Positions 40,091-63,981 of a stretch of 64,000 nt of DNA are shown in pieces. The translations under genes were made by a program, and so were the position numbers. Below the pieces are notes generated by a model that made no database searches, was not told the DNA's origin, and saw nothing but the letters and a program-made list of their open reading frames with translations. The number at the start of each line of letters is the position of its first letter. Position 1 is the stretch's first letter. The DNA is from Limisphaerales bacterium (lineage in GTDB: Bacteria > Verrucomicrobiota > Verrucomicrobiia > Limisphaerales > UBA1100): NCBI GenBank assembly GCA_965659445.1, contig CBFHWX010000002.1:9243-73242 (forward strand), read 5' to 3'.

Positions 40091-41164
40091 ATGGGATGGT
40101 ACACTGTGGGAATGCGTTGGCTGATGATCACGATGCTGATAGTGGCTTGGGGATGTGGCAAATCGCCGGTTTCGGAGTTGCAGCCGGAAGTTACGTTTGA
40201 TTTGGCAAAGCCTGCGCGGATTGAGTTGAGGGTACTAGGAGAGCCGGGGTTGTGGAAGCAGGACAACATGCTGATCTTTCCCAATGCGGAAACCAACCTC
40301 AATCAAACCAATCGCTTCACTGCGACAACACAGGAGAGCTGGGCGCTCAGGGGAAATCTGCTATTATTGGAAACCGAAATTAGCGGAGAGCAGCCGGGGT
40401 ACGAGTTGGTGGTTAAAAATTATAACGCCGCCGCTGCAACCAACCGGTATCGCTGCACTTGGTTTTATGATGATGGACTAGTGCGTGGGTATGCCGGTCA
40501 GTGGCGGCCGAAACAGGCACGCATGGACTGGCTTCCTCTGTACCTGTCAGGTGCGGCGAAGGGGTTTGATATTCAAATGACCGAAATTTCAACCGGTCCA
40601 ATGGAAAAGCAGCTCGATTTTCAAATCACTATTAATGGGAAGGTTACCTTGAGTGGACTTTTCAAGGCAAAACATGCTGGTAATAATGTCCGGTCCAAAG
40701 AGGGTTCGGATCCCGCCAGCAAGGAACTTGGGCGATTGGGACGAGGCGGAATATGGAAGGAGACGCAAACGGTTTCCGAGGGAGGAGCCACCAAGAATCT
40801 GGAGTTGTTGAACCGTATGCGATGGTCGCGCGGTGGGAAATTTCTTATCAACGAAGGCGTGGTCAATCAGGAGGGTGCTTCAGAATATTTCATGTGGGTG
40901 AAGACGTGGGATGCCGAGGATGATGTATATCGGTGGGCCTATTTTTTCCAGAATGGATGGATCGAACATTTTACAGGCCGCTGGGATGCATCCAAGCAGC
41001 TGATTACCTGGCGTCTTGTCTGGCCAGTCTCGAACTTGGGCAAAGTGCTCCGTGAACGCTTCCTTGGCCCCGAGAAGCGTTCCTGGACATTCGAAGTACA
41101 AAACGCGTCCGGCATCATTGCGACCGGCTCAGGTGGAAGCCAGTTCAAAGGTAATGCCGAGTAG
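40091..41164 (+). CDS. Probable lipoprotein with an internally duplicated domain
   Basis: The signal is MRWLMITMLIVAWGC (alternative ATG at 40112). The two halves share YRCTWFYDDGLVRGYAGQWRPKQARMDW and YRWAYFFQNGWIEHFTGRWDASKQLITW. Confidence 0.6.
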   Translation: MGWYTVGMRWLMITMLIVAWGCGKSPVSELQPEVTFDLAKPARIELRVLGEPGLWKQDNMLIFPNAETNLNQTNRFTATTQESWALRGNLLLLETEISGEQPGYELVVKNYNAAAATNRYRCTWFYDDGLVRGYAGQWRPKQARMDWLPLYLSGAAKGFDIQMTEISTGPMEKQLDFQITINGKVTLSGLFKAKHAGNNVRSKEGSDPASKELGRLGRGGIWKETQTVSEGGATKNLELLNRMRWSRGGKFLINEGVVNQEGASEYFMWVKTWDAEDDVYRWAYFFQNGWIEHFTGRWDASKQLITWRLVWPVSNLGKVLRERFLGPEKRSWTFEVQNASGIIATGSGGSQFKGNAE

Positions 41165-59740: not shown

Positions 59741-60607
59741 CTAAGCAATTGAGTTGGTTGTAAGATAATCCAAGCCAAACTCGCTGACGCATTTGCCGGA
59801 CAAATCCCCCGCGATAAGTTTATCAACCTGTTCTGAGTTTCCCTGTTCCATTGCATGGTGGATTTGGCAACAAACCTCAGGAGGGAGGGCTGGGAATTGA
59901 TCGGCGATCTGAGGCTTTACCGGCAATTGAATGCCACCAAAACTTCGACTACGAGCCTTGTGCCCATATAAGCTGTGCCAACGTTGGAAGAATAACTCCT
60001 GATCTTGTTCGAAATGCTCGGCTCTACGGTTGGTCTCAACTTCATCTTCTATATTGGCAAATTCCATCCAAGCGTCCGGGCAGGTGATTACCCTTCCACC
60101 GTAATGCCATGTCCGCAGTGAAAGATCCGGATCTCCGTAATAAGAATGAAAATAAGTGTCGTAAAATCCACCGAGCTGCGCCACGTGTTTGCGCTTTATG
60201 AACGGGAAACACGAATACAGAAACCCGTAGACACCCGGCTCCGTTCGTTCGCCAGTCACATCAAACGCCCTGAAATTGCCAATCATCAGACTGTCATCTT
60301 CCTTTTCCATAAAGGATAACATGTTTGAAGCCCATTGCGGGGTGACATACGTGTCATCGGCCAGTGCTACTACATATTCTCCGTCTGCATTTAAATACCC
60401 TTGAGTATTCGCATGGCACGATCCCTTGGGGGAGATTTCCTCAACATGCTTTACGCGTGGATGGTCTATTTTGAAAGGAGCAACCAATACCACTTCGTAA
60501 TCGACATCACCGGTCCATCGATCAATTCGATCTACGCAACGCCGTGCGCGATCCACCCGGAGTGAGGGAAGGATGATGCTCAGCTTTGGCTCGTTAGATG
60601 TGAGCAT
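59741..60607 (-). CDS. GT2-family (GT-A fold) glycosyltransferase
   Basis: LSIILPSLRVDRARRCVDRI...YEVVLVAP and ALADDTYV (DxD-like) are present. It is 288 aa. Confidence 0.7.
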   Translation of the reverse strand: MLTSNEPKLSIILPSLRVDRARRCVDRIDRWTGDVDYEVVLVAPFKIDHPRVKHVEEISPKGSCHANTQGYLNADGEYVVALADDTYVTPQWASNMLSFMEKEDDSLMIGNFRAFDVTGERTEPGVYGFLYSCFPFIKRKHVAQLGGFYDTYFHSYYGDPDLSLRTWHYGGRVITCPDAWMEFANIEDEVETNRRAEHFEQDQELFFQRWHSLYGHKARSRSFGGIQLPVKPQIADQFPALPPEVCCQIHHAMEQGNSEQVDKLIAGDLSGKCVSEFGLDYLTTNSIA

Positions 60608-60609
60608 GG

Positions 60610-61827
60610 CTAGGTGATAGCAAACTCCGTGGCCTGTGAGGGCCTTCCGGATTGTTCGCCTGAAAGCTTCATTAAGTTTACCTTGGCCTGTTCACTTGCC
60701 GGAAACCGGTTCAGCTCATCCATGAATAGTGTCTTAGCCTCATTTTCGGCACCGGCCGTTGCGAAGGCCACGCCAAGTTGATTGCGCACGCCGCGTGTAT
60801 TTGGCGCGGAATTCAAGACACACTGCAGGCTTGGGATGGCTGCTTGAGGCTGATTCATGAATAAATTCAAAAGACCCAGCATTTGGTGGGCATCCATATT
60901 GTTCGGGAATTGTTCTGTGATTACCTCCAGTTCACGAACCGCAGAATGGTGTTTGGTTTGTTCAATAGCTCCTTTTACGGTTTGCATCAGGATGCGCTCG
61001 AGGTCTTTCGAGGAGTGTCGCACTACATCGTTTCCTTCAATGGGTAAATCTGAGGAGATGTTTAAGGCAATGTTTCGCGCCTGATTTTTAACCATTGTTC
61101 GATAGAAATCGCCTGCTATAAAATCAAAATTCCATTTCCGATCACTATGCCATCGTTCGGATTGATCGGAGTCCACGGCCTCATGCAAGCGGCGATGAAT
61201 GAGAGGTTGGTCGGTAAACAGGGTTCGGTTGATGCCATGATGATGATGCAAATACCATTGCAGACACAGGGTCCAAGCATCGGTAAACGATACATGTCCC
61301 AGCCCTCCACAAATCTCAAGCAGTTTGCGACTCCAAAAAGGACCTTCATCAATCACCTCAATCGTGTCCATGTGGTCGAGAGAAAAATCGAGATAAAAAG
61401 GGGAGTTTTTATAATCAGGTCGATAGAAAGGAGGGTGTGGCAATTGATGGATAATATAAATGTCATCGTCAAATGCATTCGTCCGGCTCAAAACGGTCTC
61501 ATCCCATCCTTCCTTAACAATGATAAAATCGTCGGCAAAACACCCCATCACAGTACTGCGTGAATCTGCCAGGGACATGACTCGTGTGTAGCCGATGTGA
61601 ATGTCAATGTATCCGCGGCCCCGTGGCTCAATGAGGTACTTGATGGCAAAGGGATATTGATCCAGCGTCCTTACAAATTCCGGTACCAACCGGTCATCAG
61701 AATCAAATTTAACCAACACCTCAAAATTATCATAATTGGAACTCTTTTCCTTGAGGCCATCAAGAAGATTGGACAAACCCCAGTTTGGGTTGCCTTCGAT
61801 TCTTGAGGTTATTAGTAAACTAATCAT
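60610..61827 (-). CDS. GT-A-like domain fused to C-terminal TPR repeats
   Basis: The N-terminus has ISLLITSRIEGNP...FEVLVKFDSDD...CFADDF. The C-terminal ~110 aa are TPR-like (AHQMLGLLNLFMNQPQAAIPSLQCVLNSAPNTRGVRNQLGVAFATAG...). It ends 2 nt before the next gene. Confidence 0.6.
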   Translation of the reverse strand: MISLLITSRIEGNPNWGLSNLLDGLKEKSSNYDNFEVLVKFDSDDRLVPEFVRTLDQYPFAIKYLIEPRGRGYIDIHIGYTRVMSLADSRSTVMGCFADDFIIVKEGWDETVLSRTNAFDDDIYIIHQLPHPPFYRPDYKNSPFYLDFSLDHMDTIEVIDEGPFWSRKLLEICGGLGHVSFTDAWTLCLQWYLHHHHGINRTLFTDQPLIHRRLHEAVDSDQSERWHSDRKWNFDFIAGDFYRTMVKNQARNIALNISSDLPIEGNDVVRHSSKDLERILMQTVKGAIEQTKHHSAVRELEVITEQFPNNMDAHQMLGLLNLFMNQPQAAIPSLQCVLNSAPNTRGVRNQLGVAFATAGAENEAKTLFMDELNRFPASEQAKVNLMKLSGEQSGRPSQATEFAIT

Positions 61828-61935: not shown

Positions 61936-63981
61936 TCATAAAGCTGCCATTCTTTGATATTCATCCTCATAAAATTGAGATTTTTGAGGTTTTGAAAAAA
62001 TATTAGCAATTTCAAGGGTTGCTGAATCCTTTGCGCCCGTCAGATTTATGCATTGCTTTAGTGCCACAAAGGCGTTTTCACGATCGCCGGCGTTGGCCAT
62101 TTGAGTGATATTTTCCAATGCCGAATTGAGCAGTGTATCCAAGGCTGGTTTCAGTCTGTTTTGGAAAGGAAAAGAGACCATGACACACATGCCCTGTTCA
62201 GCCAGCTTTTGGATATCTTCTGGAGGATGGTGAGCCAATCGGAAATCTTCCCCCAAGGCTGGTGAGAGCGCATAAAATAATTCGCCCACTTGTGCGAGCT
62301 GGTAGCCGCGATATTCACCCAATGAGATAACCGTTTGCCCCGTGGAAACATCTTGGGTTAATAAGTCATACACTGGTGTATTTTCAGCATGTTGGCTAAG
62401 GAGTTGAGCAAATCGACGTCGAGTGATGTTGGCCGCCCTTGAGCGACATAGTTCATTATTAAAAATTCGGTGAGTCCAATCTGCCGCCGTCCGTTCTGCA
62501 AGTATGGAAAGTCGAAGATTTCCATCTTCTGCTCTCATCGCTTGTTCCAATAAACGTTGGCTCGCGATGGTCAGTTTGCCTAATTTTATGGCGTGTCGTA
62601 TTTTATCATCGTTTTCGGATAATAGTATCCTGTGTTTTTGACAATCAGATTGGCTTGTAGGTGCTGATTCATATCCCAACTGAGTTAACGCTTCATTTGC
62701 GATGTCGTGAAAGCAGGCGGCGTGGCTACCGTTGATTTGCGCTTGTGGCCTTGAGTTCTCAATAGAAAAGTTGGAAATAGCATCGTTAATGGCATTCGGT
62801 GTTCGGTGAACATTTAAAAATTTGAGAACTTCCTGTACCACCTGTACCGGGTGGGTTTGCATGTCTTCATACCGTATGACTTGCAAACGCATAATTTTGG
62901 CCATCTCCAGCCAATATAGGTTGAATAAACCCCAAGTCTCCGCAGGAGGTAATTTAAATAGTCCTGGGAAATGTTCCGGCCATTCCTCAGGGGTGAGAAG
63001 ATAATCCTTAAAAGACATGCTCTCTGAATGGTGTTGATGATAGTGGGAATGCACCGCGTCACGACCGTCCCGAGTTAGGAGGATGCTGGGCTGGTGTGTG
63101 TTCCTTGCAAAATCCAGACGATGGTTAATACGGCTTTTCAAGCCCATTGCGTGCAGCACATTTACCAACCACTCGGCTCCGCTGAGGAAGGGGGCAGATA
63201 CGATTTGAACTTCGGGATGGGCCTCCATATGGGTGTAGCCCCAGCGCTGCAGAAAGCAGTCAAAGTGTTCATGAAATGCTTTTATTACATTATCATCAAA
63301 CTGGTTCTTCCAATCGCCGCTAATGCCCTTACGGTACATGAAACTGGTTCGGATCGTCGGGCCATCCTCACCGCACTTCCGTCCGGCAACTGCCTCAAAA
63401 CTGTTCTGCTTACACACCTCTTGTAATTCTGGTTCTGGTAATTCTAATCCGAGAGAGTGTAGAATAGAATGTACGGCTGCTGGAATATCCCGCTTCATTT
63501 CTTCAAATGAAAGTGTGTGGACATTGGGTTGATCCAAATGAATCCACTCGTCTGCGTGATGAAACATTCCTCCAAACTCCGAGCTGATATAATCCAAATA
63601 TAATTGCTTTTCCGTATGACCCTCATGGAGTTCACGATGGATTAGATCTTTAACGTGTGATACAAGGACATCGCGTGGGTCACGGAATAAACAGATGAAT
63701 CGAAAATCTTCCCGGTCGAGAAATCGCTCAAAAACACTTGCTGGACTGTGGGTCCAATGAAAAATAGGTGCCTCTTCAGTGAATTGTTTTTCAAATTCAA
63801 TTGAGTCTCCAGGCCCCCCCAGCGCCGTGTATTGAAACTTTTCAGTCAGTAATTCGACAAGAATGGGCACGATGGCCGATGCACCCGCATTGTTCAGGTT
63901 ATAAAAAACCACATGCGGTCGTTTGGACCAATCAGATTCTCTTGTGCAATGTTGCCGATGCTTGTGGTGTGCTGATCTCAT
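61936..63981 (-). CDS. Tandem-domain sulfotransferase with a C-terminal helical region
   Basis: Domain 1 has LFRDPRDVLVSHV (3'-phosphate-binding motif) and YRKGISGDWKNQFD (Sulfotransfer_1 hallmark). The second, diverged domain has SAPFLSGAEW and ILLTRDGRDAVHSHY. It is 681 aa. Confidence 0.8.
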   Translation of the reverse strand: MRSAHHKHRQHCTRESDWSKRPHVVFYNLNNAGASAIVPILVELLTEKFQYTALGGPGDSIEFEKQFTEEAPIFHWTHSPASVFERFLDREDFRFICLFRDPRDVLVSHVKDLIHRELHEGHTEKQLYLDYISSEFGGMFHHADEWIHLDQPNVHTLSFEEMKRDIPAAVHSILHSLGLELPEPELQEVCKQNSFEAVAGRKCGEDGPTIRTSFMYRKGISGDWKNQFDDNVIKAFHEHFDCFLQRWGYTHMEAHPEVQIVSAPFLSGAEWLVNVLHAMGLKSRINHRLDFARNTHQPSILLTRDGRDAVHSHYHQHHSESMSFKDYLLTPEEWPEHFPGLFKLPPAETWGLFNLYWLEMAKIMRLQVIRYEDMQTHPVQVVQEVLKFLNVHRTPNAINDAISNFSIENSRPQAQINGSHAACFHDIANEALTQLGYESAPTSQSDCQKHRILLSENDDKIRHAIKLGKLTIASQRLLEQAMRAEDGNLRLSILAERTAADWTHRIFNNELCRSRAANITRRRFAQLLSQHAENTPVYDLLTQDVSTGQTVISLGEYRGYQLAQVGELFYALSPALGEDFRLAHHPPEDIQKLAEQGMCVMVSFPFQNRLKPALDTLLNSALENITQMANAGDRENAFVALKQCINLTGAKDSATLEIANIFSKPQKSQFYEDEYQRMAAL

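What the first reader, a model, noticed from the sequence alone, without database searches (positions are those of the whole stretch)
61936..63981. A tandem sulfotransferase domain protein sits at the edge of the glycan island
Domain 1 has clear PAPS-dependent sulfotransferase hallmarks (RDPRDVLVSHV and RKGISGDWKNQFD). A second, diverged sulfotransferase-like domain follows (LLTRDGRDAVHSHY), then a helical tail. Sulfated bacterial protein glycans are rare. Two domains in one chain suggest double sulfation, or one catalytic and one binding or regulatory domain. The first domain's 5'-phosphosulfate loop reads NNAGASA rather than the common PKSGTT-like motif. No PAPS synthesis genes (cysDN, cysC) are in the window.
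Basis: partly seen in the sequence, partly recalled or inferred. Interest (0 to 1): 0.6.

Follow-up and report, generated by a model that had tools for sequence, protein, structure and literature searches.

The report
Sulfotransferase-fold protein in a phosphoramidate operon
The two-domain "sulfotransferase" is real, but its conserved gene neighbourhood and altered donor site suggest it attaches a rare phosphorus-nitrogen (phosphoramidate) group, not sulfate, to a surface or flagellar sugar.

Summary
The 681-aa ORF and every quoted motif are present. Domain 1 (aa 23-250) is a clear Sulfotransfer_1 domain. Domain 2 (aa 255-440) is a trimmed second copy. A helical region, a small beta unit and a helical tail follow.

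The sulfation reading probably fails. Just beyond the window edge, the same gene string encodes homologues of Campylobacter jejuni Cj1418, Cj1417, Cj1416 and Cj1415. That pathway makes 3'-phospho-CDP-amidate, a cytidine analogue of PAPS. Methyltransferases and a 77%-identical single-domain paralogue lie there too.

Thirty loci from many phyla were chosen only for similarity to this protein. Twenty-four have the glutamine-kinase-like gene adjacent, and 27 have the cassette adjacent or in the genome. Natural kinase::domain-1 fusions exist. Neither domain has the canonical 5'-loop lysine, although both keep the 3'-phosphate motif. The genome's ordinary cysC is decayed.

Domain 2 has lost its RKG-type loop and evolves under weaker constraint, so domain 1 is probably the catalytic one.

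Best reading (about 0.6): a phosphoramidate transferase in a flagellar glycan island of a marine verrucomicrobium. No biochemistry exists, and homology to Cj1421/Cj1422 could not be tested. Earlier AI notes of this scan report the same cassette-plus-sulfotransferase pairing in at least 33 other genomes. I found no paper that describes it.

The parts
61936..63981 (-). 681-aa tandem sulfotransferase-fold protein (P0001)
   Evidence: ORF and translation; two Sulfotransfer_1 matches; AF2 model pLDDT 87; the top 50 Foldseek PDB matches listed are all sulfotransferase-fold enzymes
63232..63915 (-). Domain 1 (aa 23-250), SULT-like, probable catalytic domain
   Evidence: Pfam 91 bits alone. Best PDB matches are SULT2A8 and SULT2A1. 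dN/dS is 0.11-0.16. The same domain type is fused to the cassette kinase in P0017 and in G168.
63874..63900 (-). Domain 1 5'-donor loop, aa 28-36 (NLNNAGASA), in place of the canonical PKSGTTW
   Evidence: Strand 23-28, loop, helix 38-48 in the model. G33, S35 and P39 are invariant, and the Lys position is N, C or S in all 12 domain-1-type sequences. HMM alignments to solved SULTs mostly start only after this region.
63748..63750 (-). His78, candidate catalytic base of domain 1 (invariant HWTH)
   Evidence: Aligned to the His of 'SSHLP' in SULT2A1 (4ifb). H75, W76, T77 and H78 are invariant.
63658..63684 (-). Domain 1 3'-phosphate-binding motif RDPRDVLVS (aa 100-108)
   Evidence: Invariant R100, D101, P102, R103, D104, V107, S108; aligned to RNPRDVLVS of SULT2A8
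63310..63333 (-). Domain 1 RKGISGDW loop (aa 217-224), second 3'-phosphate and nucleotide contact
   Evidence: Invariant R217, G219, S221, G222, W224; aligned to RKGITGDW of SULT2A8
62662..63219 (-). Domain 2 (aa 255-440), trimmed sulfotransferase-like domain, probably non-catalytic here
   Evidence: Pfam 41.8 bits alone. It keeps H287 and RDGRDAVHS (aa 304-312). Compared with all relatives at 54% identity or less, it lacks about 50 aa after the P-loop helix and the 'RRGKVGEW' loop. The two ~92%-identical orthologues share the same deletions. dN/dS is 0.42-0.83.
62359..62607 (-). Helical region (aa 459-541), conserved with domain-2-type relatives
   Evidence: Model helices 459-541; many representatives are domain 2 plus this region
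61939..62331 (-). Small beta unit (aa 551-603, 'RGYxLxQ...ALSPALG') plus helical tail (aa 607-681)
   Evidence: Model. The module also follows a domain-1-only paralogue next to P0008 (L042, 373 aa). No Pfam match.
60610..61827 (-). 405-aa ORF downstream (no Pfam N-terminal region, TPR-like C-terminus), same gene string
   Evidence: A 59%-identical homologue follows the ST gene in relative G168, ahead of the giant GT/TPR protein.
59741..60607 (-). 288-aa GT2-like ORF, starts 2 nt after the 405-aa ORF ends
   Evidence: Glycos_transf_2, 31.7 bits
41173..48504 (-). 2443-aa GT/TPR giant; its homologues lie directly next to the ST genes in relatives
   Evidence: 55% identity to the 2418-aa neighbour of P0008; similar giants lie next to P0017 and in G168

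Best explanation
The protein is the transferase component of a phosphoramidate (MeOPN-type) glycan-decoration module. Four upstream enzymes are homologues of Cj1418 (glutamine kinase), Cj1416 (cytidylyltransferase), Cj1417 (hydrolase) and Cj1415 (3'-kinase). They would build 3'-phospho-cytidine-5'-diphosphoramidate, which resembles PAPS with cytidine for adenosine and P(O)(O-)NH2 for sulfate.

Domain 1 keeps the half of the sulfotransferase site that grips the 3'-phosphate (RDPRD..S and RKGxxGxW) and the catalytic His78. Its 5' loop is rebuilt and has no lysine. It would bind this donor and transfer the phosphoramidate group to a sugar hydroxyl, releasing 3'-phospho-CMP. The adjacent methyltransferase(s) would O-methylate the group.

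Domain 2 has lost its RKG-type loop in this lineage and probably serves as a structural or acceptor-binding partner. The C-terminal region may dock the enzyme to its target. The likely target is the glycan built by the neighbouring flagellar glycosylation genes.

Shown: fold, motifs, operon content, cross-phylum linkage, fusions. Inferred: donor identity, acceptor, roles of domain 2 and the tail.
For: (1) Operon content. On the same strand, with gaps of 171 nt or less, lie a PPDK-like 835-aa protein, a GATase (C26), an NTP_transf_3 protein, an APS-kinase-family protein, a MetE-like protein, a methyltransferase, a 271-aa ST, then this gene.
(2) NCBIfam. The 835-aa protein matches NF004508/PRK05849 at 895 bits (cut-off 501). 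The GATase's best hit is gamma-glutamyl-CDP-amidate hydrolase. The kinase passes PRK05541 (171.6 vs 127) but not the apsK equivalog (130.2 vs 138.7). JGI names homologues of the 835-aa protein 'glutamine kinase'.
(3) Linkage. Thirty loci were selected only by similarity to this protein. 24 have the GlnK-like gene within a few kb, 1 shows part of the cassette at a contig end, and 2 have it elsewhere in the genome. The same order occurs next to P0009, P0017 and in G168.
(4) Background. The marker is absent from 150 sampled phylum genomes and from 14 control genomes. This protein is absent from the same 150.
(5) Fusions. Kinase::domain-1 fusions exist, and the kinase half is 59% identical to the island's kinase.
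(6) Each ST subtype alone accompanies the cassette: domain-1 type in L017, L018, L043 and G168; domain-2 type in actinomycetes and CPR.
(7) None of the 12 domain-1-type and about 18 domain-2-type sequences has Lys or Arg at the canonical 5'-loop position, while RDPRDxxxS is nearly invariant.
(8) Cassette kinases share GH[DS], [MI]S[IL]F, HxWNR and [VI]xG, where solved APS kinases have GFS, ISPY and LTG.
(9) The genome's cysN is followed by a cysC remnant with three stops.
(10) The pathway chemistry is documented in PMC11800397.
Against: No biochemical data exist for any member. The fold and most motifs are those of true PAPS sulfotransferases. The genome has cysD and cysN, so APS is available, and the Cj1415-like kinase might also accept APS. 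Three of the 30 loci (L021, L038, L041) lie in genomes with no detectable GlnK-like gene, and two of these have a different kinase type, so the family is not strictly tied to the pathway. The GATase and the cytidylyltransferase do not reach any specific curated cut-off. I could not obtain Cj1421/Cj1422 sequences, so another gene in the island might be their homologue and the real transferase. The genome is only 86% complete, so an intact cysC may be unassembled.
Confidence: 0.6

Rival explanations
1. It is a genuine PAPS-dependent glycan sulfotransferase. The neighbouring kinase makes PAPS from APS supplied by CysDN, and the Cj1418/1417/1416-like genes serve a separate modification.
For: Strong Sulfotransfer_1 match, catalytic His and both 3'-phosphate motifs in domain 1. 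Only sulfotransferase-fold enzymes appear among the top fold matches. cysD and cysN are present. The kinase belongs to the APS-kinase family. Two relatives (L038, L041) have a kinase and a methyltransferase but no GlnK-like gene.
Against: The canonical 5'-loop Lys is missing family-wide. The kinase falls below the apsK equivalog cut-off and carries the cassette-specific signature. The kinase::domain-1 fusions sit inside the full cassette. 27 of 30 relatives lie in genomes that carry the otherwise rare cassette. The ordinary cysC is decayed.
Confidence: 0.2
2. Split chemistry: one ST subtype transfers phosphoramidate and the other transfers sulfate, so the tandem ancestor was a dual decorator.
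For: Two clearly different ST subfamilies are fused here and in about 15 representatives. An earlier scan note on other DNA raised the same idea (lead only).
Against: Each subtype alone accompanies the cassette in different phyla. Both lack the 5'-loop Lys. Domain 2 has lost a donor-binding loop in this protein. No second, canonical APS kinase is intact in this genome.
Confidence: 0.1
3. The protein does not transfer any group to a glycan. It might be a binding or regulatory protein for the nucleotide by-product, or an enzyme acting on a small molecule.
For: The acceptor is unknown. Domain 2 is degenerate. Actinomycete relatives sit in compact six-gene cassettes that could equally serve natural-product tailoring.
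Against: The catalytic His and nucleotide motifs of domain 1 are invariant, with dN/dS of about 0.1. In this family of bacteria the module abuts glycosyltransferases and flagellar genes.
Confidence: 0.07

Closest known systems
Campylobacter jejuni O-methyl phosphoramidate (MeOPN) system: Cj1415-Cj1418 donor pathway, Cj1419/Cj1420 methyltransferases, Cj1421/Cj1422 transferases (PMC11800397, PMC3907429, PMC9561416)
   Same: The same four donor-pathway enzyme types lie in one operon with class I methyltransferases. The module sits in a surface-glycan locus next to heptose-type sugar-nucleotide genes (GHMP kinase, nucleotidyltransferase, epimerase).
   Different: The host is a marine verrucomicrobium, and the island is flagellar rather than capsular. 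The candidate transferases have a sulfotransferase fold, whereas Cj1421/Cj1422 were first annotated as glycosyltransferases (PMC9561416). Homology between them was not testable here. There is an extra MetE-like gene, and kinase::transferase fusions occur in relatives.
Cytosolic PAPS sulfotransferases (Pfam PF00685; e.g. SULT2A1 4ifb/3f3y, SULT2A8 7d1x/7eov)
   Same: Same fold (TM-score about 0.6 normalised to the target). Domain 1 keeps the catalytic His, the RxPRDxxVS motif and the RKGxxGDWKxxF motif.
   Different: The 5'-phosphosulfate loop PKSGTTW (established motif, from my own knowledge) is replaced by NNAGASA in domain 1 and PFLSGAEW in domain 2. The N-terminal 50-67 residues mostly fail to align to SULT profiles. 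The protein has a tandem architecture with a C-terminal extension, and its genomic partner is a CDP-amidate pathway rather than a PAPS pathway.
APS kinase CysC (TIGR00455; PDB 8a8h, 7yq0) compared with Cj1415, the cytidine diphosphoramidate kinase
   Same: The neighbouring 199-aa kinase has the APS-kinase fold and P-loop.
   Different: It scores below the apsK equivalog cut-off. It carries GHD, MSIF, HSWNR and IPG in place of GFS, ISPY and LTG/FTG, a signature shared by the kinases of all GlnK-linked loci examined.
Bacterial carbohydrate sulfotransferases such as NodH, Stf0 and RaxST (from my own knowledge, not tested here)
   Same: They are sulfotransferase-fold enzymes that decorate glycans or peptides, encoded next to an activating kinase.
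   Different: As I recall, those enzymes keep a basic residue in the 5' loop (PRSGS- or PKSGT-type) and are linked to CysDN/CysC-type PAPS synthesis rather than to a glutamine-kinase cassette.

Membership tests
PAPS-dependent sulfotransferase (PF00685 Sulfotransfer_1) | Profile match above the Pfam gathering score, and the sulfotransferase fold | tested here: met
   Domain 1 scores 91.1 bits and domain 2 scores 41.8 bits against a cut-off of 22. The top Foldseek matches are all sulfotransferase-fold enzymes.
PAPS-dependent sulfotransferase (PF00685 Sulfotransfer_1) | 5'-phosphosulfate-binding loop with a conserved Lys (PKSGTTW type) | tested here: not met
   The loop is NNAGASA in domain 1 and PFLSGAEW in domain 2. 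No Lys or Arg occurs at that position in 12 domain-1-type and about 18 domain-2-type relatives. Positional equivalence rests on the strand-loop-helix topology in the model.
PAPS-dependent sulfotransferase (PF00685 Sulfotransfer_1) | 3'-phosphate-binding motif (R...S) and the RKGxxGxWK loop | tested here: met
   Domain 1 has both: R100-S108 and R217-W224. Domain 2 keeps R304-S312 but has lost the second loop, so the feature is met for domain 1 only.
PAPS-dependent sulfotransferase (PF00685 Sulfotransfer_1) | Catalytic histidine | tested here: met
   H78 aligns to the His of SSHLP in SULT2A1. H287 of domain 2 is family-invariant, but no HMM aligned it.
PAPS-dependent sulfotransferase (PF00685 Sulfotransfer_1) | PAPS as donor, meaning the organism makes PAPS with a canonical APS kinase | tested here: inconclusive
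   cysD and cysN are present. The cysC next to them is a remnant with three stops. The only intact kinase is of the cassette type. The genome is 86% complete. Donor use itself needs an assay.
MeOPN-type phosphoramidate modification system (C. jejuni Cj1415-Cj1422) | L-glutamine kinase (Cj1418) homologue | tested here: met
   NF004508/PRK05849 equivalog at 895 bits against a cut-off of 501, covering positions 9-787 of 789. JGI names homologues 'glutamine kinase'. That PRK05849 is the Cj1418 family comes from my own knowledge.
MeOPN-type phosphoramidate modification system (C. jejuni Cj1415-Cj1422) | gamma-glutamyl-CDP-amidate hydrolase (Cj1417) and phosphoglutamine cytidylyltransferase (Cj1416) homologues | tested here: inconclusive
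   The GATase's best NCBIfam hit is NF045546 GCDPHdlase, aligned full-length, but at 103.8 bits against a cut-off of 250. The NTP_transf_3 protein matches no specific model. Both co-occur with the GlnK-like gene in 23 of the 24 GlnK-positive loci.
MeOPN-type phosphoramidate modification system (C. jejuni Cj1415-Cj1422) | Cytidine diphosphoramidate 3'-kinase (Cj1415) homologue | tested here: inconclusive
   It passes the PRK05541 subfamily cut-off (171.6 vs 127) and fails the apsK cut-off. It carries the cassette-specific signature. No Cj1415 sequence was available for direct comparison.
MeOPN-type phosphoramidate modification system (C. jejuni Cj1415-Cj1422) | Transferase homologous to Cj1421/Cj1422 | not testable with these tools
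   No Campylobacter sequence could be reached. The papers define these genes only by knockouts (PMC3907429, PMC11800397).
MeOPN-type phosphoramidate modification system (C. jejuni Cj1415-Cj1422) | A P-N bonded (methyl)phosphoramidate on a glycan | not testable with these tools
   Needs 31P NMR or mass spectrometry.

The most novel reading that the evidence does not exclude
Sulfotransferase-fold proteins of two subfamilies, represented by domains 1 and 2 of this protein, are the general phosphoramidate transferases of a P-N glycan-decoration pathway that is widespread outside Campylobacter. In that case they would be the enzymes for the transfer step that has not been characterised biochemically. 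In marine Verrucomicrobia they would place (methyl)phosphoramidate on flagellar glycans. The tandem protein records a fusion of two such transferases, one of which has since become a pseudo-enzyme.
Probability: 0.5. Interest if true: 0.8.

Novelty: new variant of a known kind. Interest (0 to 1): 0.62.

Why it matters
A 2019 review describes MeOPN as known only from Campylobacter (PMC6429109). There it shapes phage recognition and host interaction. Papers from 2025 still describe the decoration (transfer) chemistry as awaiting elucidation (PMC12409886).

If this fold carries out the transfer, several things follow:
- The missing step gains small, soluble, testable candidates.
- It would be a clear case of a PAPS enzyme scaffold retuned to a cytidine P-N donor.
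- Thousands of genes annotated as 'sulfotransferase' and 'adenylyl-sulfate kinase' in environmental genomes would be misnamed.
- P-N sugar decoration would extend to flagella of ocean bacteria.

For annotation of this window, the practical point is that the locus should not be read as evidence for sulfated glycans.

Tried and rejected
(1) PDB sequence searches with the kinase, the cytidylyltransferase-like protein and the 835-aa protein, hoping for Campylobacter structures. None appeared, so the PDB cannot tell an APS kinase from a CDP-amidate kinase here.
(2) Reaching a Campylobacter capsule locus through homologues of the 835-aa protein. There were 3,467 hits, only the top 120 are listed, and none was identifiable as Campylobacter. 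Homology to Cj1421/Cj1422 therefore stays untested.
(3) The Cj1415 paper (PMC5938747) is not held.
(4) A single-sequence AlphaFold run of the C-terminal 236 aa gave pLDDT 39 and is unusable, so the tail's fold was not searched separately.
(5) L038 and L041 as a 'true sulfation' control. Their ST-like proteins carry the same non-canonical loop as cassette-linked relatives, so they are exceptions rather than controls.
(6) G153 as a counter-example (GlnK-like gene without an ST gene). Its contig ends inside the kinase gene.
(7) The three TAG stops in the cysC remnant as recoding. Rejected, because by my recollection of canonical CysC they fall at positions occupied by three different residues.
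(8) NCBIfam gave no match for the 681-aa protein itself.
Full report
OBSERVATION. Pfam finds Sulfotransfer_1 twice. When scanned alone, aa 70-246 score 91.1 bits and aa ~300-415 score 41.8 bits against a cut-off of 22. The last 235 aa match nothing. The best solved relatives are cytosolic SULT2A8 and SULT2A1. The alignments run from about residue 68 and place H78 on the catalytic His, RDPRDVLVS on RNPRDVLVS, and RKGISGDW on RKGITGDW. An AlphaFold model built on 45 sequences is confident (pLDDT 87, pTM 0.82). It shows two alpha/beta domains (23-246 and 258-434), helices 459-541, a small beta unit 551-603 and helices 607-680. The top 50 Foldseek PDB matches are all sulfotransferase-fold enzymes.

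WHAT LIES BEYOND THE WINDOW EDGE. The window is G000:C2:9243-73242. The minus-strand gene string continues upstream (L005), with overlaps or gaps of 171 nt or less. In order it contains an E1-like TPP pair, a DegT aminotransferase, an 835-aa PPDK_N/PEP-utilizer protein, a GATase (Peptidase_C26), an NTP_transf_3 protein, a 199-aa APS-kinase-family protein, a MetE-like protein, a class I methyltransferase, a 271-aa single-domain ST that is 77% identical to domain 1, and then the 681-aa gene. The 405-aa and GT2-like ORFs inside the window follow it. The statement 'no PAPS genes in the window' is therefore true only because the window ends about 2.3 kb short of the kinase.

IDENTITY OF THE UPSTREAM GENES. 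The four genes from the 835-aa protein to the kinase match, type for type, the C. jejuni Cj1418, Cj1417, Cj1416 and Cj1415 pathway. That pathway makes CDP-phosphoramidate 3'-phosphate from glutamine, ATP and CTP (PMC11800397). NCBIfam gives these results:
- The 835-aa protein is a full-length match to the NF004508/PRK05849 equivalog (895 bits against a cut-off of 501).
- The GATase's best hit is gamma-glutamyl-CDP-amidate hydrolase, although below its cut-off (103.8 against 250).
- The kinase passes the PRK05541 subfamily (171.6 against 127) but not the apsK equivalog (130.2 against 138.7).
JGI annotates homologues of the 835-aa protein as 'glutamine kinase'.

I aligned the kinases from all linked loci with two solved APS kinases and with this genome's own cysC remnant. 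The cassette kinases share GH[DS], [MI]S[IL]F, HxWNR and [VI]xG, where the solved APS kinases have GFS, ISPY and LTG (the cysC remnant has ISPF and FTG). The window genome's kinase has all four cassette features. As I recall from APS-kinase structures, the two replaced aromatic positions stack on adenine, which would fit a change of base. That point is inference.

LINKAGE ACROSS BACTERIA. The search for related loci picked 30 loci from GTDB representative genomes using only two peptide patterns from this protein's 3'-phosphate motifs. They come from Burkholderiales, Rhodocyclales, Rhizobiales, Verrucomicrobia, two CPR phyla, many actinomycete genera, Planctomycetota, Acidobacteria and others.
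- tblastn shows the GlnK-like gene within a few kb in 24 loci. In 22 of these the GATase, NTP-transferase, kinase and methyltransferase are all there too.
- L017 shows GATase and NTP at a contig end.
- Of the remaining five, two genomes carry the GlnK-like gene elsewhere, and three (L021, L038, L041) have none detected.

The same order is seen beside P0009, P0017 and in G168, a relative from another genus of the same family. For G168 I predicted the cassette from the ST hits and then found it about 2 kb away. The background frequency is low. The marker is absent from 150 sampled genomes of the phylum and from 14 control genomes, and the tandem protein is absent from the same 150. It was also not found in 14 other species of the genus, many of which are incomplete. 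One of them (G153) has the cassette on a 5.8-kb contig that ends inside the kinase gene.

FUSIONS AND SUBTYPES. Relatives P0017-P0022 fuse an APS-kinase-family domain to a domain-1-type ST. The kinase half of P0017 is 59% identical to the island's kinase, and the fusion sits between the NTP-transferase and the methyltransferase of a full cassette. G168 has the same fusion. A profile search of 1.84 billion representatives finds 263 family members at E<1e-30. Most are domain 2 plus the helical region, domain 1 alone, or kinase-domain-1 fusions. Tandem proteins are a minority. Each subtype occurs alone with the cassette: domain-1 type in L017, L018, L043 and G168, and domain-2 type in the actinomycete and CPR loci. 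This argues that both subtypes use the cassette's product. In the compact six-gene actinomycete cassettes, the ST-like gene is the only conserved candidate for a transferase.

DONOR SITE. In both subfamilies the RDPRDxxxS motif is invariant or nearly so. Domain-1 types keep RKGxSGxW, and domain-2 types keep RRGKVGEW. The 5' loop never carries the Lys of the classical PKSGTTW motif. Domain 1 reads [NCS]-[AS]-G-[AGS]-S at that point, and domain 2 reads P-x-[SC]-G-[AV]-x. HMM alignments to solved SULTs mostly begin only after this region. The half of the site that PAPS and 3'-phospho-CDP-amidate share is therefore kept, and the half where they differ is rebuilt. That is the pattern expected for a donor switch, but it is not proof of one.

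PAPS SUPPLY. On contig C6 lie a sulfite reductase gene, a cysH-like gene, cysD and cysN. They are followed by a cysC-like stretch that has lost its P-loop region and contains three in-frame TAG stops. No ATP-sulfurylase of the Sat type was found. The only intact APS-kinase-family gene found in this 86%-complete genome is the cassette kinase.

DOMAIN 2 IN THIS PROTEIN. Compared with every relative at 54% identity or less, the window protein and its two ~92%-identical orthologues from other metagenomes lack about 50 residues between the P-loop helix and the invariant His. They also lack the whole RRGKVGEW loop. The model still folds domain 2 compactly. Nei-Gojobori estimates against the two orthologues give dN/dS of 0.42-0.83 for domain 2, 0.11-0.16 for domain 1 and 0.12-0.44 for the C-terminal parts. 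The excess is significant in one of three comparisons (Fisher p=0.019), so this is suggestive only. I conclude that domain 1 is the working transferase here and that domain 2 is a retained but probably non-catalytic partner.

CONTEXT AND ACCEPTOR. The window carries FliF, FliG, FliI, a rod/hook protein, FlhA and FliD. Flagellin-type genes lie just before the window and on contig C11. In relatives, the ST genes directly abut a GT/TPR giant of about 2,400 aa that is 52-55% identical to the window's 2443-aa protein. In this genome an ulosonic-acid operon (NeuB, a cytidylyltransferase, an aminotransferase and others) lies between them. Upstream genes for a GHMP kinase, a nucleotidyltransferase and an epimerase resemble heptose activation, and in C. 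jejuni a heptose carries MeOPN (PMC11800397). A flagellar glycan is the most likely acceptor, but this is inferred from neighbourhood only.

COMPARISON WITH WHAT IS KNOWN. The module works like the Campylobacter MeOPN system as far as the donor pathway goes. Whether the transferase belongs to the same family as Cj1421/Cj1422 could not be tested. Those proteins are defined by knockouts and were first annotated as glycosyltransferases (PMC3907429, PMC9561416). The protein is a member of Pfam Sulfotransfer_1 by profile and fold, but it fails one defining feature of PAPS sulfotransferases, the 5'-loop Lys. Full-text searches found no paper that links phosphoramidate transfer to a sulfotransferase-like protein. 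A 2019 review says MeOPN has only been identified in Campylobacter (PMC6429109), and a 2022 review calls the glutamine kinase C. jejuni-specific (PMC9561416).

EARLIER NOTES OF THIS SCAN. I formed the phosphoramidate reading. I then found that earlier AI notes report the same cassette-plus-ST-fold pairing on other DNA in at least 33 genomes. They also describe this genome as a flagellated marine verrucomicrobium. These notes agree with my reading but are not independent evidence. What is specific to this report is the tandem architecture, the degenerate second domain, the near-identical standalone paralogue, the kinase fusions of the domain-1 subtype, and the flagellar setting.

VERDICT. The sulfation reading is probably wrong. 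The best reading is a phosphoramidate transferase (confidence about 0.6), with true sulfation as the main rival (about 0.2).

Noticed in passing
G000:C6, about 40150-40830 (L011:2650-3330, minus strand), outside the window: Directly after cysN lies a cysC-like stretch (ENIRRIGEV...FTGISSP) that lacks the P-loop part and has three in-frame TAG stops. It looks like a decayed kinase domain of a former CysNC fusion, which fits APS-based sulfate assimilation with no need for PAPS.
   Followed up: partly
L045 (ENA contig carrying P0002) compared with window 63200-63981 and L005:3396-4211: In this strain the methyltransferase directly abuts the tandem gene, and the 271-aa paralogue is missing. The first 60 nt of its tandem gene match the paralogue (98%) rather than the window's tandem gene (72%). 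dS jumps from about 0.03 to 0.34 along the gene. This points to recombination between the two domain-1 copies and to copy-number variation between strains.
   Followed up: partly
L005:4990-6171 (minus strand), outside the window: A 393-aa MetE-like protein (Meth_synt_2, 78 bits) sits between the kinase and the methyltransferase. It recurs beside P0009 and P0008 but not in the cassettes of other phyla. Its role in a phosphoramidate module is unexplained.
   Followed up: no
L038 (Acetobacteraceae chromosome) and L041 (Chloroflexia MAG): An ST-like gene with the same non-canonical 5' loop lies next to a methyltransferase and an APS-kinase-family gene that lacks the HxWNR signature. No GlnK-like gene was detected anywhere in these genomes. 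This may be a different donor route, or genuine sulfation by this family.
   Followed up: partly
window 60610-61827 (-): The 405-aa ORF with no Pfam match in its N-terminal 260 aa and a TPR-like C-terminus is conserved (59% identity) in the same position in relative G168, between the ST gene and the giant GT/TPR protein. It is not found in the cassettes of other phyla.
   Followed up: partly
L005:11968-13198 (minus strand), outside the window: A split pair of TPP-enzyme fragments (E1_dh 223 aa and Transket_pyr 211 aa, overlapping ORFs) lies next to a DegT aminotransferase, upstream of the cassette. They may build a side chain on an amino sugar.
   Followed up: no
L042:1466-2584 and P0016: The small 'RGY...ALSP...' beta unit plus helical tail of the 681-aa protein also occurs directly after single domain-1 proteins. 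It therefore behaves as a mobile module that travels with either ST subtype.
   Followed up: no
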